Part shown: positions 5,734 to 28,333 of the stretch, piece after piece
How the letters are laid out: each line of letters begins with the position of its first letter
How positions within the stretch are numbered: the first letter of the stretch is position 1
Virus record (IMG/VR): IMGVR_UViG_3300028991_000022
Length of the DNA stretch: 34,776 nt
Reading direction: 5' to 3' (one strand)
Source: a virus
Taxonomy: Duplodnaviria > Heunggongvirae > Uroviricota > Caudoviricetes
Made by a program: the position numbers and the translations under genes
The notes under the pieces: model-generated
The model's database searches: none
What the model was told of the DNA's origin: nothing
What the model saw: the letters and a program-made list of their open reading frames with translations, nothing else

Positions 5734-5744
5734 ATTCACCCCAC

Positions 5745-5770
5745 AAAAAAGCCCGCCTGAACCGGCGGGC
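5745..5770 (-). terminator. Rho-independent terminator downstream of lom
   Basis: Minus strand reads GCCCGCC-GGTTCA-GGCGGGC followed by TTTTTTG; 7-bp GC stem with a U-tract. Confidence 0.6.
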
Positions 5771-5797
5771 TGTCATAACACTGTGTTACCTGGCTAA

Positions 5798-6397: not shown

Positions 6398-6464
6398 AAT
6401 TACCTCTCGCTTTTCTGCAATAAAAAAGGCGCCATTTCTGGCGCCCGTATATGGGTTATAAAAT

Positions 6465-9860: not shown

Positions 9861-9920
9861 TCCTAACGCTCCATAAACGACAAAACCGCCCGGAGGCGGT
9901 TTCACATAAAACGTTTTTCA

Positions 9921-11209: not shown

Positions 11210-11213
11210 GGGA

Positions 11214-11912
11214 TTACTGCGAAAGTTTGTTAATGGAAAGGAAGCCGCCAAAGTTGCCGACGTTATTGCGAAACTTACAGCCGCTCAGGCATTTGCTGCA
11301 TTTATCCTTCGTGATATCGGACGTCGGCTGGTCATATTCATCCGCGACTGCCGGACCGTGATAACCGCACTCATCACCGCGATAGGTCCAGGTGCAGGTG
11401 TTGGCCAGCATGATACGTCCCGGAAAAACAGCGCCGTCCGTTTCCGTCGGCGTGGACAGTACAAAAGAGGCACTCACCGCGCTCAGTTCGCTGCACTGCT
11501 CAATGCGCCAGCGGCTGATCACCTCCTGCTCCGGATCGGCGTCACTGTTTCCGTTGACGAAGTTCACCGCATCCAGAAAACGGGCGTAAACCTTACGCCG
11601 GACCACCGTTCCGCCGACCAGACTCTGCAGATCTTCCGCCATCCCGGTGACCATGCCGTGCAGGTTAGAAACCGTCAGTGTCGGACGGGCAGCACTGCCC
11701 TTGCCGTTCAGTTCAAATCCCGTCCCCTGAATGGGGTATACCTGATACTGCCGCCCCTGCCAGATAACCGGCTCACCTTTTTCGTTCTGCTCATTACAGA
11801 AAAAATAACGTTCACCACCGACCTCTGTCAGATCGATTTCCCAGAGCACCACCTGGGCTGACTGAGTGAGGCGTGTCGTCTCATGATGTGTTTCCTGTGG
11901 AATATCCTGCAT
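11214..11912 (-). CDS. L: Minor tail protein L
   Basis: 232-aa ORF, same length as lambda gpL, with the C-terminal Cys cluster (CSKCLSGCKF) of the gpL Fe-S site. Confidence 0.9.
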   Translation of the reverse strand: MQDIPQETHHETTRLTQSAQVVLWEIDLTEVGGERYFFCNEQNEKGEPVIWQGRQYQVYPIQGTGFELNGKGSAARPTLTVSNLHGMVTGMAEDLQSLVGGTVVRRKVYARFLDAVNFVNGNSDADPEQEVISRWRIEQCSELSAVSASFVLSTPTETDGAVFPGRIMLANTCTWTYRGDECGYHGPAVADEYDQPTSDITKDKCSKCLSGCKFRNNVGNFGGFLSINKLSQ

Positions 11913-11921
11913 CAGAGCCTC

Positions 11922-12251
11922 CTATGCCACGACCTGTTCAAAATCTGCCGTTATGGTTACCCACAGCGCCCCCACGCTTGCCGACCATTTACGACAAACC
12001 ACCCTGATCGGTTTCCAGTCATAAGGTGGCGTCCACTGAAATGCACGGACGCCACCGTGCCGTTCCAGAAAGGCTTTTAAAGATGGGTGGTCACATTTAC
12101 GAACACGTATCGTCACGCTGTAAGTCGACAACTGGTTATTCAGTCCCGCCGCACGACGCTGTTCATAACCATCGCCCAGCTTCACTGTCACCACTTTCGG
12201 CTCTGATACCACATTCATATCCGGGCGCACTTTCCAGTGAAACGTCTCCAT
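11922..12251 (-). CDS. M: Minor tail protein M
   Basis: 109-aa ORF, same length and position as lambda gpM, between H and L. Confidence 0.85.
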   Translation of the reverse strand: METFHWKVRPDMNVVSEPKVVTVKLGDGYEQRRAAGLNNQLSTYSVTIRVRKCDHPSLKAFLERHGGVRAFQWTPPYDWKPIRVVCRKWSASVGALWVTITADFEQVVA

Positions 12252-15200
12252 TACCGATATGCTCCACTTAACCGACCACCATCACGGGCCTGCTGTTGCA
12301 TAAAGTCCGCTGCCGCTTTTTTCCCGAGGTCATAAACCGCCTTCAGGGCAGCCGGACCTATCTGCCCGTTCGTGCCATCGTTATTGATCTCGATGTTGTA
12401 CTGCGGGGAAAACATCGCCATACCTGACCCCCCAATATCCGCCACACCCCCCAGCTTACCGTCAGCACCACGACGCAATGGCAGAATGGCTTCAGGTCCC
12501 GCTTCCCCCATCACACCCGCGCCTTTTGCAAAAGCAAAAAACGTCGGACGGTTAACCACCGTGCCACTGTAACGACTCAAATCAGCAGACTGATAAATCC
12601 CCCCATTGGCATTCAGGGAAAGGCTGCTGAGATCAAATCCCAGTACACTGCCAATCCCTTTTATCGATTTCATCATGGTTGCCTGCGCCAGGATTTTCGC
12701 CATATCTGACAGCACAGAAGAGGTGAAGGATTTGAAATTGAGTTTGCCGGTAGTGACAAAAGTTGCCAGGCCATTTCCCATGTTGCTGAAGGCTGACGAG
12801 AACACCTGTTCTGCTGTTTCTGCCGTATTATCTGCATCCACGGTAAAATCCTGAAATGCACGCAGGACTCCGTTTTTCCAGTTACCCTGCACAACTTCAA
12901 GCTGTTGCCAGTAACGGCGATTCTCATTCAGTTGTCGGTTCAGGCTCTCCGTCAGCGCCTGCTCGGCCTTTCTGTAGTCATCCGTGTTATATGTCCCTTT
13001 CTGCTCACTATCCCGCCTCAACTGCTCCAGCTGTTGCTGGTATTTCTGGCGAAGACTCAGTTGTACCTGATATCGCTGTCGCTGCTGATCACCCATACCC
13101 ACCGTGGCGATATCCAGGTCATGTTGCTGACGCTGAGCGCGCTCTTCTTCAGCCAGTTGACTGGTCAGCTGAATTGTTTTTTTCTTCAGCTCGTTGAGTG
13201 CCGTCTGTTTCTGAAGCTCCTGCTGTTTTACATCCAGCAGCGTCAGTGCCTGAATCAGTTCATCTTTACGGGCCAGCACACTCTTTTCATCTGCCGTCAG
13301 TTTTTTCCCGTCCAGGTCGCTGATGCGCTGCTGCAGAGCCAGAAGCTGTTTATGCGCTTCTGTCATCCTTTCCGTGGCAATGCCTGCTGACTGTCTGGCA
13401 GCAGCAATCTGTCCTTCCACCTGTGCCTGTTGCTGACTGTACTGCAGCAATAACCGGGTGGCCTCATCATTACGGGTTTCGCGTGTTTTTTTCTTACCGG
13501 ATGCCAGGGCTTTCTCGTAACGTTCATTTTCACGTTGTATCGCCGCATCCCTGACAGCCTGATCGGCGTACTGCATGGCATTAATACGCGCAATTTCACG
13601 CTGATGTCGTGCTGCTTCCGTTTCATTCATCCGGTTCAGTGCAGCATTTTCAGCATTACGGCGTTTCTGTTGCTCCTGATAATTCCGCTCTGCCTGCTCT
13701 TTTGCATCCTGCAAATCCTTCTGGCGTTTTTTCTCCTGAAGATCGTTAAGACGCTGCTGATCGTATTCAACCTGAGAAGATGATGCCGTCCAGGGGAGTC
13801 TTTTCGCCCGCGACACTTTCTCCTGTAAAGCGGCAATCTGTTCATCCAGCGAGTCTTCACGACCAATATTCATGGCCGCATCCCAGAAACGACTCCACAA
13901 ATCAGACAGATACTTCAGCGTACTGCCAAGCGCATTGAGGTTATTATCAATATCCGCAGTACGCCGACCGGTTTCCTCTGCCAGTGCAGACATGGCTATC
14001 CGTGCAGCATCACTGGACCGCCCCTGCTCCCCAAGGACGCGTATCTGCTCAAGCTGAGTGGCAGTAAGAAAATGCAGCTCATTGTCCAGAGCCTTCGCGG
14101 CATTTACAGGATCATCCTTCAGCCGCTTAAACTGATTTATGGTATCGCTGACCGACTGGCCAACCGATCGCTCCATCTGTGCGGCAACTCTCGCCACCAT
14201 ACCGATATCGTTTCCACGAAATGCACCACTCCCCACCACCTGAGCCAGCGCACCGGCTGCAGCATGTTGCGTGATACCATTCCCGGAAATAGCACGACTG
14301 AGCGTCCACAGCTGCCCGGCAGTGACTCCGGCATAATGCCCCGTCAGCGACAACTGGCGGTTAAATTCTTCCCCCTCCTTCTGACCGTCATACCAGGCTT
14401 TACCCAGACCATAGACGGCCGCGGCAATACCGCCAATAACCCAGCCAAGCATCATGCCTTTCGGTGACATCAGTGTGTCTATCCATCCGGCACGGTTAGC
14501 CAGCGTTATCCCGGATCCCCTCAGCGCCCCTAAATTGCCGCGGGCCAGTTCACCTATCAGAACGCCTATCTCCTGGCGGGCTGCTGCACTTTTCAGACCC
14601 AGCGAATGCGTGGCTTTTCCTGCCTGCTCCATTTTGCGGATATACACATCTGCAGCACTGCTTACCCCCAGCTGGGCTGCCTTAGCACGAAGCAACTCAG
14701 AAGATGAAAGATTCAGGCGGGTTGCCTGCTCTTTAAGCTGACGGATAAACGCCACTTTCTGTCGGGTAGCCTCTTCCTCAGCCTGTGTAAGAACACGGGT
14801 TTTCGCAGTAACCTCAGAAATCAGCGCCAGATAATCCTGCTGACCAATCCCGCCACTGTTTCTGGCCTGTCGGATCTGCTGCTGAATACGCTGTAATTCC
14901 TGCAGCCCCGCACTGGCCTGTTTCACACTGTCAATCTGACGATAAAACGCAGCAGCCGCTTTATCCTGAGCCTCCGCCAGAGCCATGGCCTGCGCCTGTT
15001 CCTCGCGCATTTTCTGACTCAGTGCCTCCATGCGCTGGCGGGTTTTCTCCACCTCGCGGGCCATGCGTTCATGAGCCTGTGCGTTCTTCTCCACCGTCTG
15101 CGTATGGACGGATGCGGCTGTTGCAGCCGAAGAAGCTGCCTGCGTTGTCTGCCGGGCGGCCTGAGTCTGACGCTCCATAAAACGCTGCATACGGGCAGAA

Positions 15201-15346
15201 GACCGTTCTGCATCGCTGGCTGCACCATTCAGAAGGTTTTTGATACGGGGAATTTCATTTTTAAACTCTGCCGCATCAATCCCCAAATCAATGACCAGGT
15301 TGGCTATCTGGTCCATAACGCACACCTCCGGAAATACCTTCCCCAA
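12251..15346 (-). CDS. H: Tail tape measure protein H
   Basis: 1031-aa ORF, coiled-coil/Gln-rich in the N-terminal half with a Gly-rich hydrophobic C-terminal region; follows G/T as in lambda. Start may be the downstream Met (MDQIANL). Confidence 0.9.
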   Translation of the reverse strand: MGKVFPEVCVMDQIANLVIDLGIDAAEFKNEIPRIKNLLNGAASDAERSSARMQRFMERQTQAARQTTQAASSAATAASVHTQTVEKNAQAHERMAREVEKTRQRMEALSQKMREEQAQAMALAEAQDKAAAAFYRQIDSVKQASAGLQELQRIQQQIRQARNSGGIGQQDYLALISEVTAKTRVLTQAEEEATRQKVAFIRQLKEQATRLNLSSSELLRAKAAQLGVSSAADVYIRKMEQAGKATHSLGLKSAAARQEIGVLIGELARGNLGALRGSGITLANRAGWIDTLMSPKGMMLGWVIGGIAAAVYGLGKAWYDGQKEGEEFNRQLSLTGHYAGVTAGQLWTLSRAISGNGITQHAAAGALAQVVGSGAFRGNDIGMVARVAAQMERSVGQSVSDTINQFKRLKDDPVNAAKALDNELHFLTATQLEQIRVLGEQGRSSDAARIAMSALAEETGRRTADIDNNLNALGSTLKYLSDLWSRFWDAAMNIGREDSLDEQIAALQEKVSRAKRLPWTASSSQVEYDQQRLNDLQEKKRQKDLQDAKEQAERNYQEQQKRRNAENAALNRMNETEAARHQREIARINAMQYADQAVRDAAIQRENERYEKALASGKKKTRETRNDEATRLLLQYSQQQAQVEGQIAAARQSAGIATERMTEAHKQLLALQQRISDLDGKKLTADEKSVLARKDELIQALTLLDVKQQELQKQTALNELKKKTIQLTSQLAEEERAQRQQHDLDIATVGMGDQQRQRYQVQLSLRQKYQQQLEQLRRDSEQKGTYNTDDYRKAEQALTESLNRQLNENRRYWQQLEVVQGNWKNGVLRAFQDFTVDADNTAETAEQVFSSAFSNMGNGLATFVTTGKLNFKSFTSSVLSDMAKILAQATMMKSIKGIGSVLGFDLSSLSLNANGGIYQSADLSRYSGTVVNRPTFFAFAKGAGVMGEAGPEAILPLRRGADGKLGGVADIGGSGMAMFSPQYNIEINNDGTNGQIGPAALKAVYDLGKKAAADFMQQQARDGGRLSGAYR

Positions 15347-15650
15347 GATGCATCAGTTCTTCGTCCGTTCGCTCCGGTATCCCGTTCTCTTCCGGTAAAA
15401 GGCTGAAATCAGCCACCGCAGCATCACTGCTGCCGGACACCATTCTCACGATCAATGCCTTCAGCGAGGCAAACTGCGCATCCATCCACACATCACTGAA
15501 GCTCTGCATCCGGAAATAATCACCCCACTCACCAAGCTCAGTGGCCGACATTTCCGACAGCATCCGCCGCCAGTCTGCCCGCCGGAACTCCCGGGCAAGC
15601 CGCATGACAAACTGCATTTCCCGCGTCAGGACTTTTCCGGCGTCAGCACC
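15288..15650 (-). CDS. T: T segment of the G-T tail assembly chaperone (expressed by -1 frameshift from G)
   Basis: ORF in the -1 frame relative to G; its frame is open from 15650, overlapping the last 8 codons of G; sits between G and H. Confidence 0.75.
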   Translation of the reverse strand, partial: GADAGKVLTREMQFVMRLAREFRRADWRRMLSEMSATELGEWGDYFRMQSFSDVWMDAQFASLKALIVRMVSGSSDAAVADFSLLPEENGIPERTDEELMHLGEGISGGVRYGPDSQPGH

Positions 15651-16054
15651 TCATGCTCCAAATCCCCGGCATTCTCAATGGCTCCTATACCGCTCAGCGA
15701 CAGAACCATCTCTGCCCCCGCACCCAGGGCATCATACGACCATGTTGTAATAACGGATGCGTAAAGCGTCTCAACATCCTGAGACTGTTCCGCATTCCAC
15801 AGTGAGCGGGAAACCAGCCAGGCATTGATATCCATCCCCATCCGCAGAAAAGCAATCTGTCGTTCAGCCTCCGGCAGTTCTCCCTCCCCGGCATCAAACT
15901 TTGCCGTTCGCTGCTGAACAAACGTCAGATATTCAATTCTCTGCAGCCCGGACAGCTCACTGAGCACCACGGACTGTTTTTCATAATTAAACGTGTCCTG
16001 TTTCAGAAACATCATGTTCTCCACCTGCAAAAAAGCCCCGAATAACCGGGGCAA
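15626..16054 (-). CDS. G: Tail assembly chaperone G
   Basis: 142-aa ORF (lambda gpG is 140 aa) ending ...LTPEKS; followed by the overlapping -1 frame T ORF. Confidence 0.85.
   Translation of the reverse strand: MPRLFGAFLQVENMMFLKQDTFNYEKQSVVLSELSGLQRIEYLTFVQQRTAKFDAGEGELPEAERQIAFLRMGMDINAWLVSRSLWNAEQSQDVETLYASVITTWSYDALGAGAEMVLSLSGIGAIENAGDLEHEVLTPEKS
15630..15640 (-). other. Candidate programmed -1 ribosomal frameshift site for G-T fusion
   Basis: Minus strand reads ACG CCG GAA AAG TCC TGA in the G frame; heptamer G GAA AAG allows A-site Lys slippage AAG to AAA into the T frame (GGA AAA GTC CTG...). Non-canonical compared with lambda G GGA AAG. Confidence 0.45.
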
Positions 16055-16072
16055 ATGATGAGTATCGTCCTG

Positions 16073-16816
16073 TTAACCTGCTGCGCTGACAGTCACCGCA
16101 GCCACAGCCACAAAATTCCCGTCAGCGGTCATGCCCACAATGCTGACACTGCCCTGCTTCACGCCTTTTACCGTGGCCACAAGTCCGTTCAGGGTAACCG
16201 TGGCAGTCTGTGGATCTGACGAATGCACACTGATCGCTTTGTCACTGGCTCCGTCAGGTTTTACTGTAAAGGTCAGCGTGGTGGTTGCTCCCACTTTTAC
16301 ACTGGCAGACGCCGGTGATACTGTCAGCCCGGTAACGCTCACGGTTTCAGTGCCTTCCTCTGCCAGATACGGACGCCCCACACCGCTGATTTTCACAGTG
16401 CGGGTCATCACGTCTTTTGAGGCAATGGTTTTACCCAGTGAGCTCAGCCAGCCACGGAAAACATCAACAGTGCCGTTGGGATATTTGATACGAAACGCGC
16501 AGACTTCACCGGAGTCGAACAACTGAACCAGTTTTTTCTGCCCGCTGTCACCCGGACGCCAGGCCAGCGTCGCCGAAGTATCACCAACGGATTTCTGCCC
16601 CTGGGTTGTCGTTTTCCAGTCTGCATCTTCATCATCGAGATAAGTGTCATCTTCTGCATCAGCGGTCATTTCGCCAGGTTGCAGATCCTTCACCATCGCA
16701 AGACGCAGCCAGTCAGTGTCCGACAAAGGGTTCGCAAACGCATCGCCGTTGCCGGTATACATCCAGAACGTCGTCCCCGCACCTTTCGTCTTTGCCAGTG
16801 GATTTGGTGTGGTCAT
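16073..16816 (-). CDS. V: Major tail protein V (with C-terminal Ig-like domain)
   Basis: Start at ATG 16814-16816 with a GGAGGT Shine-Dalgarno upstream; MTTPNPLAKTKGAGTTFWMY...; Ig-like C-terminal segment (TVSPASASVKVGATTTLTFTV). Confidence 0.9.
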   Translation of the reverse strand: MTTPNPLAKTKGAGTTFWMYTGNGDAFANPLSDTDWLRLAMVKDLQPGEMTADAEDDTYLDDEDADWKTTTQGQKSVGDTSATLAWRPGDSGQKKLVQLFDSGEVCAFRIKYPNGTVDVFRGWLSSLGKTIASKDVMTRTVKISGVGRPYLAEEGTETVSVTGLTVSPASASVKVGATTTLTFTVKPDGASDKAISVHSSDPQTATVTLNGLVATVKGVKQGSVSIVGMTADGNFVAVAAVTVSAAG

Positions 16817-16826
16817 TACCACCTCC

Positions 16827-17240
16827 TTAATTCGTGTACGTGATCTGGTACGTGATTTCCGCCATCGCCCAGGTGGCCATCTCATTATCACGTTGATAGT
16901 TAAAACCGAGTGGGATCAGGGTGTCGATGAGTCCGGAAAGTGCCGGTATATCATTCAGGGCAGGGAAAATGGTGCTCTCCATCCACATATCCAGCTCTGA
17001 ATCCGGTGCCTGTGCCCGGATGAAGACGGCAATATGCAGAACAGCCTGCCAGTCATCTTCATCCGTCATTTTTCCGGTGTACTGAGCATCACTCAGCCAC
17101 ACCGCCACGGCAGGCAGTTCCTGCGCATCAATAAATGCCGGAAGCCCGTCAAAAAACGTGGCGCTGTCTCCACACTGTTCCCGAAGGCGTGCCAGTACGG
17201 CCTGGCGGATTTGTGTATGTCGGTTCATCGGGTCAGCCAT
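16827..17240 (-). CDS. U: Tail terminator protein U
   Basis: 137-aa ORF between Z and V; size and position as lambda gpU (131 aa). Confidence 0.8.
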   Translation of the reverse strand: MADPMNRHTQIRQAVLARLREQCGDSATFFDGLPAFIDAQELPAVAVWLSDAQYTGKMTDEDDWQAVLHIAVFIRAQAPDSELDMWMESTIFPALNDIPALSGLIDTLIPLGFNYQRDNEMATWAMAEITYQITYTN

Positions 17241-17803
17241 AACCTCAGTTGTTGTTTTAGTGCATACCCCAGCTGTTTCGGCATTTCCGCAGCAATGATG
17301 TGGTCGCGGGCATCTTCAAATGCCTGTGTCAGCGGTCCGGACAGCGGGATTTTCACCACATCAATGGGGTAACGATGTTTGCCATCAATACGTCGCATCA
17401 CATGCCAGCGACCATTCGCCAGTTGCTGAATAAACGCATCCCGGAAAAGATATTTACCCACCTTCAGCACACTGCCACGGTACTGCAGTTTTCCACCACG
17501 CCGGGCCAGTCTGACCCGGGCTGTCCCCAGCTTAATGGCGGGCAGATTGCCCCGGTTAACGCGGATCCTGACCGTCATTTTTCCTGACGGACTGGCTTTA
17601 AACACCAGGACACGCTGACGTACCAGTTTCAGGGGGATCCCTTTCACCTGGTTATCTCCCGCAACGGTATTCCCGGCAACCTGCCGGGTGGCAACCGAGA
17701 CCGCTTTCTGTGCCACACGGTTTATCGCCCATGCGCTGGCCTGTGGCACCATACGGGTATCAAGGCTGTTCAGATTGCGGATGGCATTCTCAAGCCCCTT
17801 CAT
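17225..17803 (-). CDS. Z: Tail completion protein Z
   Basis: 192-aa ORF, same length as lambda gpZ, located between the FII-like gene and U. Confidence 0.8.
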   Translation of the reverse strand: MKGLENAIRNLNSLDTRMVPQASAWAINRVAQKAVSVATRQVAGNTVAGDNQVKGIPLKLVRQRVLVFKASPSGKMTVRIRVNRGNLPAIKLGTARVRLARRGGKLQYRGSVLKVGKYLFRDAFIQQLANGRWHVMRRIDGKHRYPIDVVKIPLSGPLTQAFEDARDHIIAAEMPKQLGYALKQQLRLWLTR

Positions 17804-17814
17804 CCCACACCTCT

Positions 17815-18090
17815 TTACTCAATAAAGATCATTGGCTTACCGTTAAAACGTTCATGCCGTGTGACCGTCCATTGTTGTCCGTCATAAACAACGCGATCCC
17901 CGCGCCGTGGGCGGTATCCCGAAGAAAACACCACCAGAGAGACCGCAAGTCCGGACAGAGCATTCAGCTCTGCCAGTGTTTCTCCCGGGATCACAGTCAT
18001 ATCGACATCATTAATCGAGGCTGTCTTTCCCATCTTTCTGACCGTGATCGCATCCATACGCGCTGCCAGCCGGGAAAAGGGATCAGACAT
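17815..18090 (-). CDS. Head-tail joining protein, FII-like
   Basis: 91-aa ORF; C-terminal RRGDRVVYDGQQWTV resembles the lambda gpFII RRGDTLTIGEENFWV region; sits upstream of Z. Confidence 0.65.
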   Translation of the reverse strand: MSDPFSRLAARMDAITVRKMGKTASINDVDMTVIPGETLAELNALSGLAVSLVVFSSGYRPRRGDRVVYDGQQWTVTRHERFNGKPMIFIE

Positions 18091-18406
18091 TGAGTTTTAC
18101 CGGCACTTCTTCTGCACTGGTTCCGGCATCTGCCCAGACAACCCCGACCAGCGGCTCAGAGCCGCTGTTAGTCAGCTGAACTTTTCCTGACTTCAGATAA
18201 ACCTTCTTACCCGTTTTCATGTCATCCGTTTTCAGCTTAGGCAGCATAAACACACCTTCGGTTATGCCGTCGCCTGTTTCTCCCTGTGGAATATCGGTCA
18301 GCGCCACCGCAAAAACATCCCCCACCTGCACCAGATCTCCGCTGCTGATGGCTGCACTGGCAACAATCGCCACCGTTTTTCCTTCTTCTACAAAATTCTT
18401 TGCCAT
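18083..18406 (-). CDS. Small head protein, DUF2190-like (possible head decoration/cement protein)
   Basis: Start at ATG 18404-18406 (MAKNFVEEGKTVAI...); about 107 aa, Gly/Val-rich, immediately downstream of the capsid gene. Family assigned from memory. Confidence 0.5.
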   Translation of the reverse strand: MAKNFVEEGKTVAIVASAAISSGDLVQVGDVFAVALTDIPQGETGDGITEGVFMLPKLKTDDMKTGKKVYLKSGKVQLTNSGSEPLVGVVWADAGTSAEEVPVKLNV

Positions 18407-18450
18407 AACTGTCTCCGCACAGCCCCGTTCAGGGGCTGATTTCAGGTACA

Positions 18451-18469
18451 AAAAAAGCCCTTACGGGCC
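18451..18469 (-). terminator. Candidate leaky rho-independent terminator downstream of the major capsid gene
   Basis: Minus strand reads GGCCCGTAAGGGC followed by TTTTTTT; the stem is short (4-5 bp). A second hairpin AGCCCC-GTTC-GGGGCT at 18420-18439 lacks a U-tract. Confidence 0.45.
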
Positions 18470-18492
18470 ATCAGAGTTGTTGTCTGCGACGT

Positions 18493-20451
18493 TTACGCCG
18501 TACATTTCACCAGGCCGCGGTGATCAACTGGCGCAACACCAGCGTCAATACGCACTTTCGTTGTCACGCCATCCACACTGAAGCCCTCCATCTGATCAAT
18601 ATATGGCGTATCCACACCGTTGAGATAAGCCACTTCAATCGTATCGGAGCCTTTGGACGCAGCCAGGTAGAAGGTGGTCTGGCTGTTATCATCAAGACGA
18701 GGCTCTGCAATAACGGTCGCAAAATCTTTCACCGGGTTAATAATACCGGCGTTAATGTCAGCCCCCTTGACACTTGAGGAGCGAATGACCTGGTTAGCAA
18801 CAGACTCCATCGCCGTCGGTACCAGTACGAACGCAGGACGAATATTCAGATGACGCTCACCCTCTTTCTGAACGCGCATCAACTGGCGGGCTTTATCCAG
18901 CGATGCCACGTCCATTGCCGCGCTCTCCAGTACGTTTGCATGTTTCGCTTTATCGAACAGACTTACATTATCTGTGGAGATTTTCGGGTTAGACGTCAGA
19001 ATGGCATAAACCAGATCGGCAATAGTGGATTTCGCCGCACGGCCCAGCTTCATCGGGACATCGGTCAGCATATTCAGATCATCATTGATAATGGCCTGAC
19101 GGGTGATACTGAACAGCTCGCCATAGGTCGCCAGTGCAATAGTGGCCTGTTTATCTCCGGTGGTGACGTATTTATATTCTGCCCCTTCACGCACCTGACG
19201 CAGAGCACTGAAGCCCCCCATACCCACACGATGGGCAATTTTAAAATCAGACAACTGACCTTTCCGCGTCCACTGTTCATAGGTTTCAGGGGCATCTTCC
19301 CAGCCCTGCAGAATGGCTTTGTTCGCAACATCCAGCAGAATATTACCGAAGTCAGACGTACTGTGTGTGAACGCCGCACCGACCATCTGCATCGGGTTAT
19401 AACTGGAAACACCAATACCACGTTCAGTCAGTGACATACGGGCATATTCACGCAGGGTCATCCCGTTGTAGACATTATCACGTTCAGTTTTTTCAAACCC
19501 GGCGCGCGCCATCAGCGCCTGGCGGATCCCGTCCCCCACAAAATTACCGTTACCGGCATAAATATGAGCCGGGGTATTTTTATTGGATGGCGTGGACTCG
19601 CGCCCCATCTCGTTCAACAGCTTTTCGCGGGCCTGCTCCAGCGAACATTCAGGATCGGCAAGACACTGAGCCTGCAACGACTGATAACGCCCGCCAAACA
19701 TGGCAAACAGATCATTAATACCGTTTACACGCGCTTTTTGCTCTGCCAGGACCTGCGCACGGATGCTGTTTTCATCCACCACGGGTGCTGCTGCCTGCAC
19801 TGGCGTCCGGGAGGCTGCAGGTCCATCATCCTGTACGCGTGGAGCACTGTTGCGTGGCGGAGTAATCATATTTCGAATGGATTCCGGCATCTTTTTAAAT
19901 TCCTCTGTACGTTTTGACTGAATACATGCCATTGCCTTAACGGCTGGTGTCACCTGATCAGCAAATCCCTGTGCCAGACATTCGGCACCGGACATCCAGG
20001 TCTCATCCGCCAGCATGGCAGCAATTTCATCGGTGGTTTTCCCGGTTTTCTGTGCATAAGCGGGTAACAGAACCGCCTCAACTTTATCGAGCAGGTCGGC
20101 ATAGGTGCGCATGTCCTCCGCATCACCGCCCGTAAAGCCAAATGGTTTATGAATCATCATGAAGGAGTTTTCCGGCATAATGACCGGGTTTCCCACCATC
20201 GCAATGACCGACGCCATTGACGCCGCCACACCGTCGACATAAACGGTAATGGACGCACCATGTGTTTTCAGTGCATTAAAAATGGCGATGCCTTCAAAGA
20301 CATCGCCACCCGGTGAATTAATATGGAGATTAATGTGGGTGATATCGCCCAGTGCATTCAGATCACTGATAAACTGCTTCGCCGTAACACCCCAGAAACC
20401 AATCTCGTCATAAATATAAATATCCGCGTCACTCTGGTGACCTGCCTGCAT
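18493..20451 (-). CDS. Head maturation protease (ClpP/S49-like) fused to an HK97-fold major capsid protein
   Basis: 652 aa from ATG 20449-20451 (MQAGHQSDADIYIYDEIGFWGV...). N-terminal part has a ClpP/SppA-like motif region (INSPGGDVFEGIAIFNALK...ASMASVIAMVG); the C-terminal roughly 350 aa is a capsid-like domain. The longer ORF start at 20712 would overlap the portal gene. Confidence 0.8.
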   Translation of the reverse strand: MQAGHQSDADIYIYDEIGFWGVTAKQFISDLNALGDITHINLHINSPGGDVFEGIAIFNALKTHGASITVYVDGVAASMASVIAMVGNPVIMPENSFMMIHKPFGFTGGDAEDMRTYADLLDKVEAVLLPAYAQKTGKTTDEIAAMLADETWMSGAECLAQGFADQVTPAVKAMACIQSKRTEEFKKMPESIRNMITPPRNSAPRVQDDGPAASRTPVQAAAPVVDENSIRAQVLAEQKARVNGINDLFAMFGGRYQSLQAQCLADPECSLEQAREKLLNEMGRESTPSNKNTPAHIYAGNGNFVGDGIRQALMARAGFEKTERDNVYNGMTLREYARMSLTERGIGVSSYNPMQMVGAAFTHSTSDFGNILLDVANKAILQGWEDAPETYEQWTRKGQLSDFKIAHRVGMGGFSALRQVREGAEYKYVTTGDKQATIALATYGELFSITRQAIINDDLNMLTDVPMKLGRAAKSTIADLVYAILTSNPKISTDNVSLFDKAKHANVLESAAMDVASLDKARQLMRVQKEGERHLNIRPAFVLVPTAMESVANQVIRSSSVKGADINAGIINPVKDFATVIAEPRLDDNSQTTFYLAASKGSDTIEVAYLNGVDTPYIDQMEGFSVDGVTTKVRIDAGVAPVDHRGLVKCTA

Positions 20452-20464
20452 CCTGAACCAGGAA

Positions 20465-21973
20465 TTATTCTTCGGACTGGTCGTCGGTGTGCTGCGGCTC
20501 CTGTCGTTTCGTTGCGGCACTGCTGCCTCCTTTATCACTGGCCGGATCGGTATCAAATACCAGATCCAGCTTGCGGTTTTCATCAATTTCGGCCTTGCGC
20601 CGACGTTTGACATCATCCGGATTACGACCACCTGCACGTACCCAGTCTGATTCTGTCGCCGCTCCACCACGAATCTGAATTTTCCAGGCCTCAGCCTCCT
20701 TAACAGGGTCAATCCACGGCATCACCGGTCCGGAATACACCGCGGTATACAGTGAAGAACGGTCCAGATCGCGGGGTAGCCTGATAACACCGGATGCCAC
20801 AGCCTGTTTCAGCCAGGCACGGTACATCGGGCGGGTGACGGCACCAATAAACCAGTCCTGCAGGATCAGGTAGCCATCAGTAGATTCAACCAGCTCCTGA
20901 CGCTGGGCGCTGTAAGTGCCGTTATAGTTGCGCGCTGTACTGGAAAAACTCAGACGACTGCCCGCAGCCACGGCACGCAACTGACCATTACGAAAAGTTT
21001 CAAGGTTAGGATTGGGGCGATCCGACTTCACCATTCCGATTTCTTCGCCGGGTTTCAGATCGTCGTAAATAATGCCTGGCTGAATGGTAAGCTCGCGTTC
21101 ATTCTCCTTGCTGTCATTACCATCCGTTTCATAGCTCTGTCCGTCGCCTTTCCGGATGTACATCCCCAGAGCAGCGGCGATCCTTGCTGCAGTCAGCTCA
21201 GAATCTTCATACTCTTTCAGAGCACTGAGGCGGATCAGCACACCGGACAACAAAGACGTCCCGCGCATCTGGTGCAGACGGCGAACAAATTTAAGATGCA
21301 GCATTCGCTCTGCATCCACTTCTTTGGTTTCCATCTGCCGCCCGGATACGGGACGGCTTTTATACACCAGATATTTTTCGGGACGCCCCCAGTCATCAAC
21401 AAACACGCCCTGATTCAGCCTGTTGCTCTCATCACTGGTCATGGGAATAAAGTCCGGCTCGAGCGCCTCCAGCCAGAAATGAACACCGGCAGAAGGCGTC
21501 AGGCTGTTTATGCGCCCGGAAACCATCTGGGCAAACACCTCACCATCGCGCAGCCAGGTACGCAGCATCAGACGTTCCAGCATCGGACGGGTAAACTGCC
21601 CGGTGACCTCCGGACTGACAGACCATTCACTCCATCGGGTACGTATCTCCGCTGCCAGATCACGGGCAATGGCCCCATTGCGTAATACCGGATGTGGCTC
21701 GACAATAATCCCGTTTTTCCCCACCACCCGTTCTTCCAGCTTGTCAAATACACCAATGACCAGATCGTGGTTGTTATCAAGGTAACGGGCCTGCTCACGT
21801 AACGACACGGCCCCGTACTGGCTTAACTGGTCGGCAGTTCGGCTCTCCCGTCGGGCTTTGTGTGTCCGCGTCGTTTTTACGGCCTCATAAGCCTGGATCA
21901 CCGCACGGGAACGCAGCCTTGCCGCTTTCCATCCTGGTGAAAAAACGCCAATCACATCATCAAGAATTGCCAT
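20465..21973 (-). CDS. Portal protein
   Basis: Start ATG 21971-21973 (MAILDDVIGVF...) overlaps the W-like stop by 1 nt (TGATG); about 500 aa between W and the protease-capsid gene, the canonical portal position. Confidence 0.8.
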   Translation of the reverse strand: MAILDDVIGVFSPGWKAARLRSRAVIQAYEAVKTTRTHKARRESRTADQLSQYGAVSLREQARYLDNNHDLVIGVFDKLEERVVGKNGIIVEPHPVLRNGAIARDLAAEIRTRWSEWSVSPEVTGQFTRPMLERLMLRTWLRDGEVFAQMVSGRINSLTPSAGVHFWLEALEPDFIPMTSDESNRLNQGVFVDDWGRPEKYLVYKSRPVSGRQMETKEVDAERMLHLKFVRRLHQMRGTSLLSGVLIRLSALKEYEDSELTAARIAAALGMYIRKGDGQSYETDGNDSKENERELTIQPGIIYDDLKPGEEIGMVKSDRPNPNLETFRNGQLRAVAAGSRLSFSSTARNYNGTYSAQRQELVESTDGYLILQDWFIGAVTRPMYRAWLKQAVASGVIRLPRDLDRSSLYTAVYSGPVMPWIDPVKEAEAWKIQIRGGAATESDWVRAGGRNPDDVKRRRKAEIDENRKLDLVFDTDPASDKGGSSAATKRQEPQHTDDQSEE

Positions 21974-22191
21974 CAGAACCTCGCCAGCCGGTACCCGGGA
22001 TGCCCCCGTTGTCGTGTAATCAGAGCCGCAAGGCGGCGCTCCCACTCCTGCCGCCCCTGCCGGATCTCAGATAAGTTTTCCATGGTCATCTGCTGACCAT
22101 TAAAAGTGACGGATTTTCCGTCCAACACCGCCATTTCAGCTTCCGTATAACGCTGAATCATGGCTTCAATATCATTCTGATTCATAACCAT
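21973..22191 (-). CDS. gpW-like head completion protein
   Basis: 72-aa ORF between the terminase large subunit and portal; size and position of lambda gpW. Confidence 0.7.
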   Translation of the reverse strand: MVMNQNDIEAMIQRYTEAEMAVLDGKSVTFNGQQMTMENLSEIRQGRQEWERRLAALITRQRGHPGYRLARF

Positions 22192-24281
22192 CCTCCGGAA
22201 GTCAGCCAGGGGTTAACATCGTCAGTTACTGTTTTCTTCCGTTTTTGTTTTTTAACAGGCGTGGGTACCGGTTCCGGTGAGGGTGACGGTTCGGTACTGT
22301 CCGGGACACACTCCAGCCAGGTTTCCCGGCTCGCCCACTCCGGTGCATCCGGCCAGCGGATCTTTTCGTATCCATGCAGAATGACCAGAGCCTCGGCATA
22401 CACCATCAGGTCAAAAGCTTCGTTGGCACCGCGACCCGGCTTACTCCATTTCCCGTCACTGCTCCGCTCTTCATACGTCAGTTCGTCGTAAAACCAGCTC
22501 CCCAGCCAGTCAGGGAAATGCACATAACCTGGACCTGGCGAGTCACGCCATAACGCGTTATTCACCCGGTCTTTCAGGGCATCCGTCTGAAGAAGCCAGA
22601 GCGGCACATCACCTGCGGCCTGCGCCCGGCGGCCCGTTCGTCCGGTGTTATCAGGGAATGTACGGCTGATCAGTTTTGCGCGCCGGATGCTGTCGCCCTT
22701 AAACAGGTAAATACGTTTACCAAGGCCATCACGACGGCAACGACGCCAGAATTTATAGGCATTATCAGTGACCCCGTCTTCACCGCCGGAGTCCACCGCC
22801 ATTGCCATCAGTCGCATTTGTTGAGAAGGATCGGAGGCCAGCGGCCAGCTTTTATGAAAAACATCCGTCAGCAGGACATCCCAGTCTTCCGGATAGCTGG
22901 CCGGATCAATTCGCTGGCTCTCCCCGTCGCAGTCACTGCGCAATGACTGCGTGATGTTGTAACGATCAATAATCCAGCGTTCGCCACGGCTGCCATAGCC
23001 CGTTACCTGAACCACAAAACGGCGATGACGTCCCGCCTGCACATCCACTGTCGCCACAAGGAAATTAACGCCATCCGGAACACTGCGGGAAGGAACTGGC
23101 TCTGCCCGCTGCTCAAGCAGTTCACTTTTTCGTTGCTCCATGCTGGCACGAGGAAGATAAGGCAATCCCCAGTCGGTGTTGATAACCGCCCTGAGTGTTT
23201 CTTCGCTTCCTGTCGCTTCATACTCCTGTTCTGCAGTCAGTAATTTGTAAACCAGTTGCGCCCAGGTCTGATACGCAGCAGCTGGCCCTTCCATCCAGAA
23301 ACTGGCGATACGGGAGCGGCGTGGTTCACCGGAAACGTTGCCGTTACGATCAATGACCTGACCTTCACGCAACCAGACTCCTGCACTATTGAGCTCACGC
23401 TTTTTCTCCGCAGTGATAATGCCGCTGCAGTGCGGGCAAAGTAGATACGCCGCCTCACTGGCTTTAAAGGGATCCGGTTCATTACGGTAGCCGGTCATGG
23501 CATCCATAGCTGGCTGAAAATATTCACCGCAGTGCGGACATGGCCAGTACCAGCGGCGGCGGTCACCACGATTGTAAAGGGAAAGAATACCAGTCGTCGG
23601 TGGCGCTTCATGAGGCGACTTACGTCGCCATTTGCTGTCGCAGATGTCACGTCCCGGCGAGCTCTCCACCAGAGTCATCCCGGCGGACATAAATGTGGTG
23701 GTACGTTTTGAGGCCAGGGAGAAACCATCACCCTCGCTGTCGATATTCTCCGGAAAACGGTCGTAATCGGTTAAGGCGACAAACCGGTAATCCGACGACG
23801 ACATAATGTTGACCGAGGGCCAACCAATTTTAAGGAACGAGCCATCCCTGAACGTCTTATCATGGACATTATTGTCGTTACGACGTGGACTCATTCTTTT
23901 CTTTACCGCCGCACTGCTTCTGAACGTTCTGTCGAGGCGCTTTTTAGAATGCTCGCGGGCCTTATCTTCGGTCATCTGCACAACGAGCATGTCCGAAGGA
24001 TCGCAAACGATGGTATAGACAATCCATCCATCGATCAGACCAATGGTCTTCCCTGTTCGCGCAGGACCAACAAAAATCACCGCATCGTATTCACGCGATG
24101 CCAGGCAGTTCATGGGCTCAATGATGTAGGGTGTCAGTTCAGGATCCCATGGCACCGAGTTACCAGCCCCCTTGGGAACACGCATGAATTTTTTAACAGC
24201 CTCCGAAATCGGCATGCGACGTGGTGGGGAAAATCCTGCCGATATGTCCCTTCCCAAATTTCGGGCTGATGAAAAACCCAT
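22182..24281 (-). CDS. Terminase large subunit (lambda GpA family)
   Basis: 699-aa ORF with a Walker A-like segment (VGPARTGKT) and the GpA-type Cys motif region (CPHCGEYF...CPHCSG), comparable to lambda gpA ACPHCGEEQY...LCEHNAC. Confidence 0.9.
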   Translation of the reverse strand: MGFSSARNLGRDISAGFSPPRRMPISEAVKKFMRVPKGAGNSVPWDPELTPYIIEPMNCLASREYDAVIFVGPARTGKTIGLIDGWIVYTIVCDPSDMLVVQMTEDKAREHSKKRLDRTFRSSAAVKKRMSPRRNDNNVHDKTFRDGSFLKIGWPSVNIMSSSDYRFVALTDYDRFPENIDSEGDGFSLASKRTTTFMSAGMTLVESSPGRDICDSKWRRKSPHEAPPTTGILSLYNRGDRRRWYWPCPHCGEYFQPAMDAMTGYRNEPDPFKASEAAYLLCPHCSGIITAEKKRELNSAGVWLREGQVIDRNGNVSGEPRRSRIASFWMEGPAAAYQTWAQLVYKLLTAEQEYEATGSEETLRAVINTDWGLPYLPRASMEQRKSELLEQRAEPVPSRSVPDGVNFLVATVDVQAGRHRRFVVQVTGYGSRGERWIIDRYNITQSLRSDCDGESQRIDPASYPEDWDVLLTDVFHKSWPLASDPSQQMRLMAMAVDSGGEDGVTDNAYKFWRRCRRDGLGKRIYLFKGDSIRRAKLISRTFPDNTGRTGRRAQAAGDVPLWLLQTDALKDRVNNALWRDSPGPGYVHFPDWLGSWFYDELTYEERSSDGKWSKPGRGANEAFDLMVYAEALVILHGYEKIRWPDAPEWASRETWLECVPDSTEPSPSPEPVPTPVKKQKRKKTVTDDVNPWLTSGGWL

Positions 24282-24289
24282 TATTCCTC

Positions 24290-24829
24290 CTAGAGACTCT
24301 CTCCTTCCTCATCAGGAATTAATTCAGCAGCACAAGCCTCGTAGGATTTTTCCTGAAGAGTGTATCGCAGGTCATCAATGGCCTGCTGTACAACGCCGAC
24401 GGCCTGAGGAGTCAGGGCGCAATCGCGTTCAAGAACATCCGGAATTGTCTCCAGAACCTGGACGACAGCCTTTCTCATGGACGAATAGACGATGACTACT
24501 TCATCAACTGGGATGAGTTTTCGCTGCTCCTTTTCCAGCTTGATCCTTTCATTTTCAGACTGGTACCAGTCCTTTCTCTCTTTCGGCTCCATACGGGATG
24601 GATCATGAACAGAGTCTGCTGCCTCATGCTTCACACTAAACAGGGCGGGCCCGACATGCTGCAGGGCGTAAACGGGGTTCCCCCTGACAGTCGCAGCCAC
24701 AGGAGTGTTGGCCGCGAGGAGCCGTTTTTTTACTGTGTCCCGGTGAAGCCCAAAGGCCTCGGCGATTTTAAAAACACTCCAGTAATAAGCATCACCGATC
24801 CCGCTCACATTTGACATAAGCAACTCCAT
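24290..24829 (-). CDS. Terminase small subunit
   Basis: 179-aa ORF immediately upstream of the large subunit with an N-terminal HTH-like segment (WSVFKIAEAFGLHRDTVKKRL); size close to lambda Nu1 (181 aa) but not obviously Nu1-like in sequence. Confidence 0.75.
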   Translation of the reverse strand: MELLMSNVSGIGDAYYWSVFKIAEAFGLHRDTVKKRLLAANTPVAATVRGNPVYALQHVGPALFSVKHEAADSVHDPSRMEPKERKDWYQSENERIKLEKEQRKLIPVDEVVIVYSSMRKAVVQVLETIPDVLERDCALTPQAVGVVQQAIDDLRYTLQEKSYEACAAELIPDEEGESL

Positions 24830-24997
24830 CTGGCAGGTGAAAATCAGGTTTATTTATATATTTCAATTAATTGCAAACTGGTCTAATGACAGGGAGAAAA
24901 AAATATTGTACAGGTGAAAAGAGAAATAACTTTTAATTATCAATAAATTACCAAACATGCTGCCGCCGCCATGGAAATGCAAAAACTAGTCTTTTTC

Positions 24998-25019
24998 CGC
25001 GACGCTCCCGCCCCGTGGC
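24998..25019. other. Candidate cos site (cosN-like) about 170-190 bp upstream of the small terminase gene
   Basis: Minus strand reads CCACG-GGGCGGGAGCGT-CGCGG, strongly resembling lambda ACG-GGGCGGCGACCT-CGCGGG (12-nt cohesive end plus flanks). An AT-rich, bendable region (24830-24960) lies between it and the terminase start, as cosB/IHF does in lambda. Confidence 0.5.
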
Positions 25020-25379
25020 AGGGACCCCCACTGGGAGGACCCGACAGCCTGACAACCGTGACGAGCATCTGAAACAGAGCGTTACATAATGGCATGGGGA
25101 TAATTCAGAAGGACATCACAGCATGCCCACACAAATTAGTGTGAGTGTCCTGTTTCTTACTACGCGCAGGACTGACGAGCATGAGGGGAAAATACGCGAA
25201 CCGAAATGCCTTATCTTCAGAAATGCAGCCGGCATCCGAACTGGACGATATTGTAAATTCACCTAAATACGAGGCATTGCTGTAGTTGAATTGCAGTACT
25301 GTATTAGCCTTACAGTGACAGAATACGATATTGACTCTGTCACTTGTGAAATGGTCAGAATGGTTAGCAGTTATGGTGA

Positions 25380-27305: not shown

Positions 27306-28329
<1,024 letters not shown>

Positions 28330-28333
<4 letters not shown>

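What the first reader, a model, noticed from the sequence alone, without database searches (positions are those of the whole stretch)
24830..25030. Candidate cos site with lambda-like cosN core about 175 bp upstream of the terminase genes
The minus strand contains CCACG-GGGCGGGAGCGT-CGCGG, differing from the lambda cosN core and flanks at only a few positions. An AT-rich stretch suitable for IHF bending and cosB lies between it and the small terminase start. The prophage therefore appears to retain a packaging site, and together with intact terminase, portal, head and tail genes this points to potential inducibility.
Basis: partly seen in the sequence, partly recalled or inferred. Interest (0 to 1): 0.45.

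Follow-up and report, generated by a model that had tools for sequence, protein, structure and literature searches.

The report
Cos packaging site of cdtI/Tritos-type prophage
The flagged sequence is very likely the DNA-packaging (cos) site of an E. coli lambda-like prophage, essentially identical to the site at which the sequenced phages cdtI and Tritos are opened, so it is a correct but ordinary annotation.

Summary
Confirmed and ordinary. On the minus strand, 25018..24997 reads CCACG|GGGCGGGAGCGT|CGCGG. It lies 172 bp upstream of the first ATG of a small-terminase gene (Pfam DUF1441), followed by a GpA-type large terminase and a lambda-family portal.

Similarity to lambda cosN alone is not significant: 16/22 is reached somewhere in the window in 26% of shuffles. 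The context decides it:
- The GenBank records of phages cdtI and Tritos begin exactly at GGGCGGGAGCGT and end at ...CTGCCACG. They are 98.7–99.4% identical to the window over the next 314 bp. Tritos is a plaque-forming phage.
- Lambda's termination heptamer GGGTCCT (cosQ) sits 29 bp upstream of the predicted nick, against 30 bp in lambda.
- The 12-mer differs from lambda only at positions 7, 8, 9 and 11. The CG pairs flanking both nicks are kept. This is the published pattern of natural cosN variation.
- A perfect IHF consensus (24938–24950) and several cosB blocks are conserved in 11 relatives from other Enterobacterales genera.
- Relative to phage mEp460_ev081, identity drops from 100% exactly between cosN and cosB.

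Head and tail ORFs are uninterrupted, but the window lacks the integrase and repressor, so inducibility cannot be judged. Already known; low interest.

The parts
25036..25042 (-). cosQ-like heptamer GGGTCCT, the packaging-termination element in lambda. It lies at -29..-23 from the predicted top-strand nick (lambda: -30..-24).
   Evidence: Exact heptamer, and only 2 copies occur on both strands of the window. The position compares closely with lambda. An [A/G]GGT[A/C]CT heptamer lies at -28..-31 in 22 of 25 related cos regions. The role of cosQ in lambda is from PMC4669245 and PMC9026076.
24997..25018 (-). cosN, the nicking site: CCACG|GGGCGGGAGCGT|CGCGG. Predicted nicks are between 25014/25013 on the window minus strand (phage top strand) and between 25002/25001 on the plus strand.
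   Evidence: 16/22 identical to lambda cosN, with the CG dinucleotides at both nicks conserved. The nick positions are inferred from the record ends of cdtI and Tritos and from the lambda paradigm; they were not measured here.
25002..25013 (-). Predicted 12-nt 5' cohesive end, GGGCGGGAGCGT.
   Evidence: Records AB285204.1/NC_009514.1 (cdtI) and OV696610.1 (Tritos) start with this 12-mer and end with ...CTGCCACG. The same 12-mer occurs in mEp460_ev081 and PhiR40_1. Variation among relatives is mostly confined to positions 7-12, as reported for lambda-like phages (PMC4669245).
24974..24996 (-). Spacer at the lambda I2 position, between cosN and cosB: AAAAAGACTAGTTTTT plus GCATTTC. It is an A-tract/T-tract near-palindrome.
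   Evidence: GAAAcGGCTAGTTTT is conserved in all 12 aligned relatives and in the 25 loci. The near-palindrome was found (I4). The block of 100% identity with mEp460_ev081 ends here.
24956..24973 (-). Candidate small-terminase binding element at the lambda R3 position (bp 41-58 of the left end): CATGGCGGCGGCAGCATG, an imperfect inverted repeat.
   Evidence: Conserved block ATTTyCATGsTGnCAGCAGCAGGTG in relatives. It is the first segment that diverges from mEp460_ev081, which carries a different small terminase. Binding is inferred, not shown.
24938..24950 (+). IHF consensus site (WATCAANNNNTTR = TATCAATAAATTA), at bp 64-76 of the left end, the position of lambda I1.
   Evidence: Perfect match; 2 in the window against 1.27 expected. 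TAAttTATTGAT is conserved at the same position in E. coli, Scandinavium, Proteus and Providencia relatives.
24911..24920 (-). Copy 1 of the direct repeat TTTTCACCTG, a candidate R site in cosB.
   Evidence: The only two exact copies in the window both lie in cosB, 77 bp apart.
24878..24892 (-). Conserved block CTGTCATTAGACCAG, a candidate inverted R site.
   Evidence: CTGTCAyCT is conserved in 11 of 12 aligned relatives. TGTCA is the reverse complement of the TGACA core found in the ATG-proximal block of the relatives.
24830..24843 (-). Copy 2 of the repeat, TTTTCACCTGCCAG, directly upstream of the small-terminase start. It is a candidate R1-like site.
   Evidence: Exact repeat. TTTCACCTGaCAG is conserved in relatives.
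24290..24829 (-). Small terminase subunit gene (TerS): 179 aa from the ATG at 24829. The likelier start is the ATG at 24817, with SD GGAG at 24827..24824, giving 175 aa.
   Evidence: Pfam DUF1441, 1.7e-44. PHROG 141 'terminase small subunit' 8e-65 and PHROG 57 (the family of lambda Nu1) 1e-9; lambda Nu1 hits PHROG 141 at 6e-8. 100% identical to TerS of cdtI, Tritos and HannyBb.
22182..24281 (-). Large terminase subunit gene (TerL, 699 aa): ATPase motor plus the endonuclease that would nick cosN.
   Evidence: Pfam GpA_ATPase 5e-81 and GpA_nuclease 1.8e-86.

Best explanation
This is the cohesive-end packaging site (cos) of a lambda-like E. coli prophage of the cdtI/Tritos/mEp460 group, and it has the lambda layout cosQ - cosN - spacer - cosB.

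Proposed mechanism (by homology with lambda):
1. The small terminase encoded just downstream binds the AT-rich cosB (24830-24973). It is a remote Nu1 relative and probably has an N-terminal helix-turn-helix. IHF probably helps by bending the DNA at 24938-24950.
2. This positions the GpA-type large terminase on cosN.
3. The large terminase makes nicks staggered by 12 bp, leaving the 5' overhang GGGCGGGAGCGT as the left end of the virion DNA.
4. DNA is then pumped into the prohead, leftwards in window coordinates through the head and tail genes.
5. Packaging ends at the next cos of the concatemer, where cosQ (GGGTCCT) and cosN are needed.

Shown here: the sequence elements, their conservation, the protein families, and the coincidence with the ends of deposited phage genomes.

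Inferred: the nick positions, the binding of TerS and IHF, and the activity of this particular copy.
For: 1. Records of phages cdtI and Tritos begin at GGGCGGGAGCGT and end at ...CTGCCACG, which is the window sequence. They are 98.7-99.4% identical to the window over the following 314 bp.
2. TerS is 100% identical to that of cdtI, Tritos and HannyBb. Tritos makes virions and plaques (PMC9928086).
3. An exact cosQ heptamer lies 29 bp from the nick.
4. The 12-mer differs from lambda only at positions 7, 8, 9 and 11, and the CG flanks are kept. This is the natural-variation pattern described for lambda-like cosN (PMC4669245).
5. The same layout recurs upstream of DUF1441 TerS genes in 25 loci from phages and many genera. 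The 12-mer varies most in its right half, while the flanks, the spacer and the IHF site are conserved.
6. TerL has the GpA ATPase and nuclease domains, and the portal is lambda-family. TerS and lambda Nu1 hit each other's PHROG families.
7. Against mEp460_ev081, identity is 100% through cosQ, cosN and the spacer. It collapses at about 24975 across cosB, terS and the TerL ATPase half, then returns at about 23150. That is the modular boundary expected between a shared cutting site and a specificity cassette.
8. Phage Cr-LKS3, whose TerS is 38% identical, is reported to have 5' cohesive ends (GGGCTCGCG) with the same flanking bases (PMC9303873).
9. No Rfam family, promoter-like site or terminator-like site lies in the region.
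Against: - No physical end-mapping data could be read. The cdtI paper (Asakura 2007) and the cosN survey (Vahanian 2017) are not held, so I cannot say whether the cdtI or Tritos record starts were measured or set by analogy.
- The cohesive end of LLS is explicitly 'inferred' by its authors (PMC12315714).
- Similarity to lambda cosN alone is within chance.
- TerS fails Pfam Phage_Nu1. Direct profile comparison with Nu1 is weak: hhalign probability 17.6%, and the PDB hits have E-values of 0.1 or worse.
- The R-site assignments are pattern-based only.
- Whether this copy is ever cut depends on prophage induction, and the window does not cover the relevant genes.
Confidence: 0.9

Rival explanations
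1. The sequence is a genuine cos, but it is a silent relic. The prophage in this strain cannot be induced or excised, or is otherwise defective, so the site is never used unless a related helper phage supplies terminase.
For: The window ends near the hokD/rem region and contains no integrase, excisionase or repressor, so nothing here shows competence. The 98.5%-identical prophage in NZ_CP027342 sits at the rspB site, and its genes carry the names of K-12's Qin prophage (essD, rrrQ, rzpQ, ydfT, dicB). From my own knowledge, Qin itself is defective. That prophage also carries pseudogene fragments (ydfB, cspF) in its early/moron region.
Against: All minus-strand ORFs from TerS to the tail fibre are unbroken and have the same lengths as the annotated intact genes. 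cos, terS and terL are 98.6-100% identical to those of plaque-forming or induced phages. The NZ_CP027342 relative has an integrase, excisionase, CI/Cro-type regulators and an antiterminator, none flagged as pseudogenes.
Confidence: 0.2
2. The resemblance to cosN is a chance G+C-rich motif in an intergenic region, and packaging starts elsewhere (for example a pac site inside terS, with headful packaging).
For: A 16/22 match to lambda occurs somewhere in 26% of shuffled windows. The 12-mer alone has 4 mismatches to lambda.
Against: Two phage records are opened exactly here. cosQ has the right spacing. The motif and its flanks are conserved across genera while neighbouring sequence is not. TerL belongs to the GpA (lambda, 5'-cos) family. 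The joint chance expectation is about 1e-7.
Confidence: 0.02
3. The region encodes a small protein (the 51-aa ORF at 25095..24940, minus strand) or a regulatory RNA, rather than acting as a DNA site.
For: An ORF of 51 aa spans cosQ and cosN. Some phage records annotate 'hypothetical protein' features over the equivalent stretch.
Against: The ORF has no Pfam or PHROG hit. The region has no Rfam hit and no promoter-like or terminator-like site. Conservation among relatives comes in discrete DNA blocks separated by variable sequence, and most relatives replace the ORF's upstream part with unrelated AT-rich sequence.
Confidence: 0.02

Closest known systems
cos of Enterobacteria phage cdtI (AB285204.1 / NC_009514.1) and Escherichia phage Tritos (OV696610.1, prophage 3 of E. 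coli LF82)
   Same: The 12-mer GGGCGGGAGCGT is identical and the left flank ends identically in ...CTGCCACG. The next 314 bp are 98.7-99.4% identical. TerS is 100% identical, and TerL through the head genes are 98.6-98.7% identical at DNA level.
   Different: There are a few point differences in the spacer and cosB, e.g. GACTAG in the window against GGCTAG. The region to the right of cos (lysis genes and morons) follows mEp460_ev081 rather than cdtI. No cdt genes were seen in the window.
Bacteriophage lambda cos (cosQ-cosN-I2-cosB with R3-I1-R2-R1), terminase gpNu1/gpA
   Same: - The order of elements and the distance to the small-terminase start (lambda 191 bp, here 185 or 197).
- The cosQ heptamer is identical.
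[quoted passage not shown]
- An IHF site follows the first cosB element.
- TerL has the GpA ATPase and nuclease domains, and the portal is lambda-family.
   Different: - Cohesive-end positions 7, 8, 9 and 11 differ.
- cosQ is offset by 1 bp.
- The cosB repeats are unrelated in sequence to lambda's R sites.
- TerS is Pfam DUF1441, with only reciprocal remote PHROG hits to Nu1.
- Packaging specificity is therefore expected to differ from lambda.
Putative cos of mEp213/LLS (GGGCGGCGCGCT) and the cos regions of mEp460-, Fels-1-, Gifsy-2- and VT1-Sakai-type phages with DUF1441 small terminases
   Same: They share the same family of TerS (35-42% identity) and the same cosQ/cosN/spacer layout. mEp460_ev081 and PhiR40_1 carry the identical 12-mer.
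   Different: Their cosB begins with a (CAT)n-like run (e.g. GTCATCATCATCATG) where the window has CATGGCGGCGGCAGCATG. Their TerS proteins are under 45% identical to the window's, implying a different cosB specificity.

Membership tests
lambda-like cos sites (12-nt 5' cohesive ends; definition used in PMC4669245) | The cohesive-end sequence has significant identity to lambda's. The left half (bp 1-6) is conserved and variation is tolerated at bp 7-12. | tested here: met
   GGGCGG|GAGCGT against GGGCGG|CGACCT: 6/6 in the left half, with differences only at 7, 8, 9 and 11. The pattern is described in PMC4669245.
lambda-like cos sites (12-nt 5' cohesive ends; definition used in PMC4669245) | Conserved 5'-CG-3' dinucleotides flank both nick positions. 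| tested here: met
   ...CA-CG|GGG... and ...CGT|CG-CGG. This is conserved in most of the 25 related loci.
lambda-like cos sites (12-nt 5' cohesive ends; definition used in PMC4669245) | The 7-bp cosQ (GGGTCCT) lies upstream of cosN. | tested here: met
   Exact heptamer at 25042..25036, at -29 from the nick against -30 in lambda.
lambda-like cos sites (12-nt 5' cohesive ends; definition used in PMC4669245) | cosB lies between cosN and terS, with small-terminase binding repeats (R sites) and an IHF site. | tested here: inconclusive
   The IHF consensus is perfect and conserved. Candidate repeats are TTTTCACCTG x2 and conserved blocks, but no binding data exist and there is no similarity to lambda's R sequences.
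lambda-like cos sites (12-nt 5' cohesive ends; definition used in PMC4669245) | Virion DNA physically ends in a 12-nt 5' overhang at this site. | not testable with these tools
   The evidence is indirect only. The cdtI and Tritos records start and end here, and the papers that might document end-mapping are not held.
lambda-type terminase (gpNu1 + gpA) | The large subunit has GpA ATPase and GpA endonuclease domains. | tested here: met
   PF05876 at 5e-81 and PF20454 at 1.8e-86.
lambda-type terminase (gpNu1 + gpA) | The small subunit belongs to the Nu1 family (Pfam Phage_Nu1). | tested here: not met
   The only Pfam hit is DUF1441. Remote relationship only: reciprocal PHROG 57/141 hits at 1e-9 and 6e-8, and hhalign probability 17.6%.
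cdtI/Tritos-type cos-terminase module | Near-identity of cosN, cosB and terS to the reference phages, with the reference genome termini at the same base. | tested here: met
   98.7-99.4% over 314 bp. The records begin at window position 25013. TerS is 100% identical.

The most novel reading that the evidence does not exclude
The cosB of the DUF1441-type small terminases may be a distinct, uncharacterised packaging-specificity system. Its proposed elements are an imperfect palindrome at the R3 position (CATGGCGGCGGCAGCATG), a conserved IHF site, and CACCTG-N-CAG / CTGTCA repeats. Within this group the termination element cosQ varies naturally (AGGTACT in most relatives, GGGTCCT here), contrary to the statement that cosQ shows no natural variation. 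If so, this locus and its relatives would offer a ready-made comparative series for mapping terminase-DNA recognition beyond lambda, 21 and N15.
Probability: 0.35. Interest if true: 0.3.

Novelty: already known. Interest (0 to 1): 0.1.

Why it matters
It matters little beyond correct annotation. Knowing the cos position fixes the natural ends and orientation of the phage genome. It shows that the packaging module of this prophage is sequence-intact. It also implies that the prophage, or any DNA carrying this cos, could be packaged by terminases of the widespread cdtI/Tritos type. Part of this 501-bp region is found in 2050 of 5426 complete E. coli genomes, and at least 80% of it in 655. That is relevant to the mobilisation of prophage-borne cargo such as cdt or hok-type morons. 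The comparative alignment gives testable candidates for the terminase and IHF binding sites in a small-terminase family I found no experimental cosB mapping for.

Tried and rejected
- A full-text search for the 12-mer GGGCGGGAGCGT found only an unrelated mammalian promoter paper.
- The cdtI paper (doi and PMC1964815) and Vahanian et al. 2017 are not held. Whether the cdtI ends were mapped experimentally therefore stays open.
- The Tritos paper gives no statement on termini.
- The LLS record annotates a cohesive site, but the paper says it is inferred.
- The Ayreon and Ahp2 papers add no end data.
- The repeat finder did not list the TTTTCACCTG pair. It was found by eye and confirmed with the DNA search.
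- Direct profile comparison of TerS with lambda Nu1 was weak.
- PDB sequence hits were non-significant, with winged-HTH proteins and RppC at E = 0.1-0.8. I ran no further search on it because it would not change the verdict.
- The idea that the lambda similarity is itself statistically compelling was rejected.
- A coding or RNA role for the region was rejected.
- Gifsy-2 has 14 nt rather than 12 between CCACG and CGCGG. This was not resolved.

Full report
**Observation**

The window minus strand at 25018..24997 reads CCACG GGGCGGGAGCGT CGCGG. The 12-mer occupies 25013..25002.

Lambda's cos was taken from NC_001416. Against it, 16 of 22 positions are identical:
- The left half of the 12-mer matches 6/6.
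- Positions 7, 8, 9 and 11 differ.
- The right flank CGCGG matches 5/5.
- The left flank matches 3/5.

The right nick lies 172 bp from the first ATG of the downstream ORF (24829), and 184 bp from the ATG at 24817. The second ATG has a GGAG Shine-Dalgarno sequence and is the start used by PGAP and by the Tritos annotation. The intervening 24830-24997 is 32% G+C.

**Is it more than chance?**

By resemblance to lambda alone, it is not. The site is the best 22-mer match in the window, but 26% of shuffled windows reach 16/22 somewhere. The lambda 12-mer with up to 3 mismatches is no more frequent than expected.

What makes it non-random is context:
- It is on the correct strand in the short intergenic region directly upstream of the terminase genes.
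- An exact copy of lambda's cosQ heptamer GGGTCCT lies at 25042..25036. That is 29 bp from the predicted nick, against 30 bp in lambda. Only one other copy exists on either strand of the window.
- The joint chance expectation is about 1e-7.

**The genes**

- The ORF 24829..24290 is Pfam DUF1441, not Phage_Nu1.
- The ORF 24281..22182 has the GpA ATPase and GpA endonuclease domains.
- The ORF 22045..20465 is a lambda-family portal.
- The DUF1441 protein matches PHROG 141 'terminase small subunit' (8e-65) and, weakly, PHROG 57 (1e-9).
- Lambda Nu1 is a PHROG 57 member (1e-76) and hits PHROG 141 at 6e-8. The two small terminases are therefore remote relatives.
- Direct hhalign is weak but collinear from the N-terminal helix-turn-helix region. 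PDB sequence hits are non-significant and are mostly winged-HTH proteins.

**Direct comparison with sequenced phages**

Megablast of 25200..24700 against phage records finds phage HannyBb at 99.4% over the whole query. The records of Enterobacteria phage cdtI (AB285204.1/NC_009514.1) and Escherichia phage Tritos (OV696610.1) start at query position 188, which is window position 25013.

Reading the record ends confirms this. Both begin GGGCGGGAGCGTCGCGGAAAAAGGCTAG... and both end ...CTGCCACG. Two independent depositions therefore linearise the genome at exactly the predicted left nick.

TerS is 100% identical in these phages. Tritos is prophage 3 of E. coli LF82; it is spontaneously induced, seen by electron microscopy, and forms plaques on K-12 (PMC9928086).

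I could not establish whether either record start was measured or chosen by analogy, because the cdtI paper is not held and the Tritos paper is silent on termini.

**Comparative anatomy**

tblastn finds DUF1441-type small terminases in mEp460, mEp043, mEp213, Ayreon, LLS, Gifsy-2, Fels-1, VT1-Sakai, Stx phages and others at 35-56% identity. A scan of bacterial genomes gave 38 further loci.

The same layout recurs upstream of these genes:
- An [A/G]GGT[A/C]CT heptamer lies 28-31 bp before the nick.
- Next comes CCACG, then a 12-mer that usually begins GGGCGG and varies in its right half, then CGCGG.
- An A-tract-GGCTAG-T-tract follows.

Three further points tie this layout to real cohesive ends:
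- The published rule for lambda-like phages is that cohesive-end positions 7-12 vary naturally, while the left half, the CG pairs at the nicks and cosQ are conserved (PMC4669245). The window fits this exactly.
- The LLS record annotates a 12-nt 5' cohesive site at the homologous place, although its authors call it inferred (PMC12315714).
- Phage Cr-LKS3, whose TerS is 38% identical, is reported to have 5' cohesive ends starting GGGC with the same flanking bases (PMC9303873).

**cosB**

I aligned the window with 11 relatives whose TerS is 51-86% identical: Scandinavium, Yersinia, Providencia, Proteus, Rahnella, Xenorhabdus, Rouxiella, Edwardsiella and phage PSTCR8lys. The alignment shows discrete conserved blocks separated by variable sequence:
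- A block at the lambda R3 position. In the window it is CATGGCGGCGGCAGCATG at 24973..24956; in the relatives it is CATGsTGnCAGCAGCAGGTG.
- An IHF consensus. In the window it is the perfect match TATCAATAAATTA at 24938-24950, one of 2 in the window against 1.27 expected.
- A CTGTCAyCT block at 24892..24878.
- TTTCACCTGaCAG just before the start codon, at 24843..24830.

The decamer TTTTCACCTG occurs exactly twice in the window. Both copies are in cosB, 77 bp apart. I propose these blocks as the TerS and IHF binding sites. This is inference from pattern and position only.

**Mosaic boundary**

Against phage mEp460_ev081 the window is 100% identical from 25500 down through cosQ, cosN and the spacer to about 24975. 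It is then only 14-72% identical per 50-bp window across cosB and terS. Identity stays reduced (about 30-90%) across the TerL ATPase half and returns to about 100% from about 23150 onwards.

mEp460_ev081 carries the identical 12-mer but a TerS only 42% identical. The cutting and termination sites (cosQ, cosN) are thus shared with the TerL nuclease half, while cosB travels with terS. This is the same modularity known from lambda and phage 21 (PMC4669245). The break falls exactly where the cosN|cosB boundary is predicted.

**State of the prophage**

On the minus strand, ORFs tile 24829..1760 without interruption: TerS, TerL, a 72-aa ORF, the portal, a 739-aa protease-capsid fusion, the tail genes, the tape measure, J, lom, and the tail fibre with its assembly gene. 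Their lengths match the unflagged PGAP genes of a 98.5%-identical prophage beside rspB in E. coli 2014C-4587.

The structural region is 96-99% identical to mEp460_ev081, Tritos and cdtI. The window stops near rem/hokD and contains no integrase or repressor, so inducibility cannot be assessed.

Part of this cos region occurs in 2050 of 5426 complete E. coli genomes. At least 80% of the query is covered in 655 of them.

**Alternatives**

- No Rfam family, promoter-like site or terminator-like site lies in 24700-25700.
- The 51-aa ORF across cosQ and cosN has no family hit.
- Chance is excluded by context.
- The remaining live alternative is that this copy is intact but silent in its host.

**Verdict**

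The site is the already-deposited cos of cdtI/Tritos-type phages and fits the published description of natural cosN variants. It is a sound annotation of low novelty.

Noticed in passing
window 24975 and ~23150 (minus strand): Relative to phage mEp460_ev081 the window is 100% identical on both sides, but it carries a different cassette made of cosB, terS and the ATPase half of terL. The left joint falls exactly between the cosN spacer and cosB.
   Followed up: yes
L017-L028, L043, L046, L052, L054, L011, L012 at about -29 from the predicted nick; window 25036-25042: At the cosQ position most relatives have AGGTACT, whereas the window, mEp460/PhiR40-type phages, VT1-Sakai and Rouxiella have lambda's GGGTCCT. 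This is natural variation at a site described as invariant in lambda-like phages (PMC4669245).
   Followed up: partly
window 27908-33701: There are six Chi octamers (GCTGGTGG) against 1.46 expected, and none of 100 shuffles reached 6. All lie in the phage right arm within 3-9 kb of cos, and none in the 25 kb of structural genes. Four are on the minus strand, which is the phage top strand and the active orientation for RecBCD entering at the right cos end. This matches the Tritos-class pattern in PMC12315714.
   Followed up: partly
window 24817 vs 24829 (minus strand): The small-terminase start is ambiguous. cdtI annotates the first ATG (179 aa). PGAP and Tritos use the second ATG (175 aa), which has a GGAG 7 nt upstream and aligns with the start in relatives.
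   Followed up: partly
window 24940-25095 (minus strand): A 51-aa ORF spans cosQ and cosN. Equivalent stretches are annotated 'hypothetical protein' in phages HannyBb and mEp460_ev081. It has no Pfam or PHROG hit and is probably spurious.
   Followed up: partly
window 31085-31161 and 31271-31344 (minus strand): The prophage carries tRNA-Arg(tct) and tRNA-Met(cat) genes upstream of the lysis region.
   Followed up: no
window 26683-27100, 30198-30388, 1794-1992 (minus strand): Rfam hits: a cspA thermoregulator (the leader of a cold-shock gene moron between lysis and cos), the sRNA STnc100, and IS009 near the tail-fibre assembly gene.
   Followed up: no
L016 (JAGZPX010000007.1): A contig filed under a Veillonella parvula MAG carries a 99%-identical TerS and the identical cos sequence. 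It is most likely a mis-binned E. coli prophage contig.
   Followed up: no
L008 (LR595868.1, mEp460_4F5) 1-30: The record starts CCACGGGGCGGGAGCGCGGAAAAAGG, which lacks 3 nt (TCG) present in all relatives at the right nick. This is probably an assembly artefact at the cohesive-end junction.
   Followed up: no
L011 (Gifsy-2) ~295-325: Gifsy-2 has 14 nt rather than 12 between the conserved CCACG and CGCGG flanks (CCACG GGTGGCTTCGGGCT CGCGG). Its overhang length or nick positions may therefore differ.
   Followed up: no
window 18493-20712 (minus strand): A single 739-aa ORF corresponds to the gene PGAP annotates as a 'ClpP-like prohead protease/major capsid protein fusion' in the related prophage. 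This is the Gifsy-2-type head arrangement mentioned in PMC12315714.
   Followed up: no
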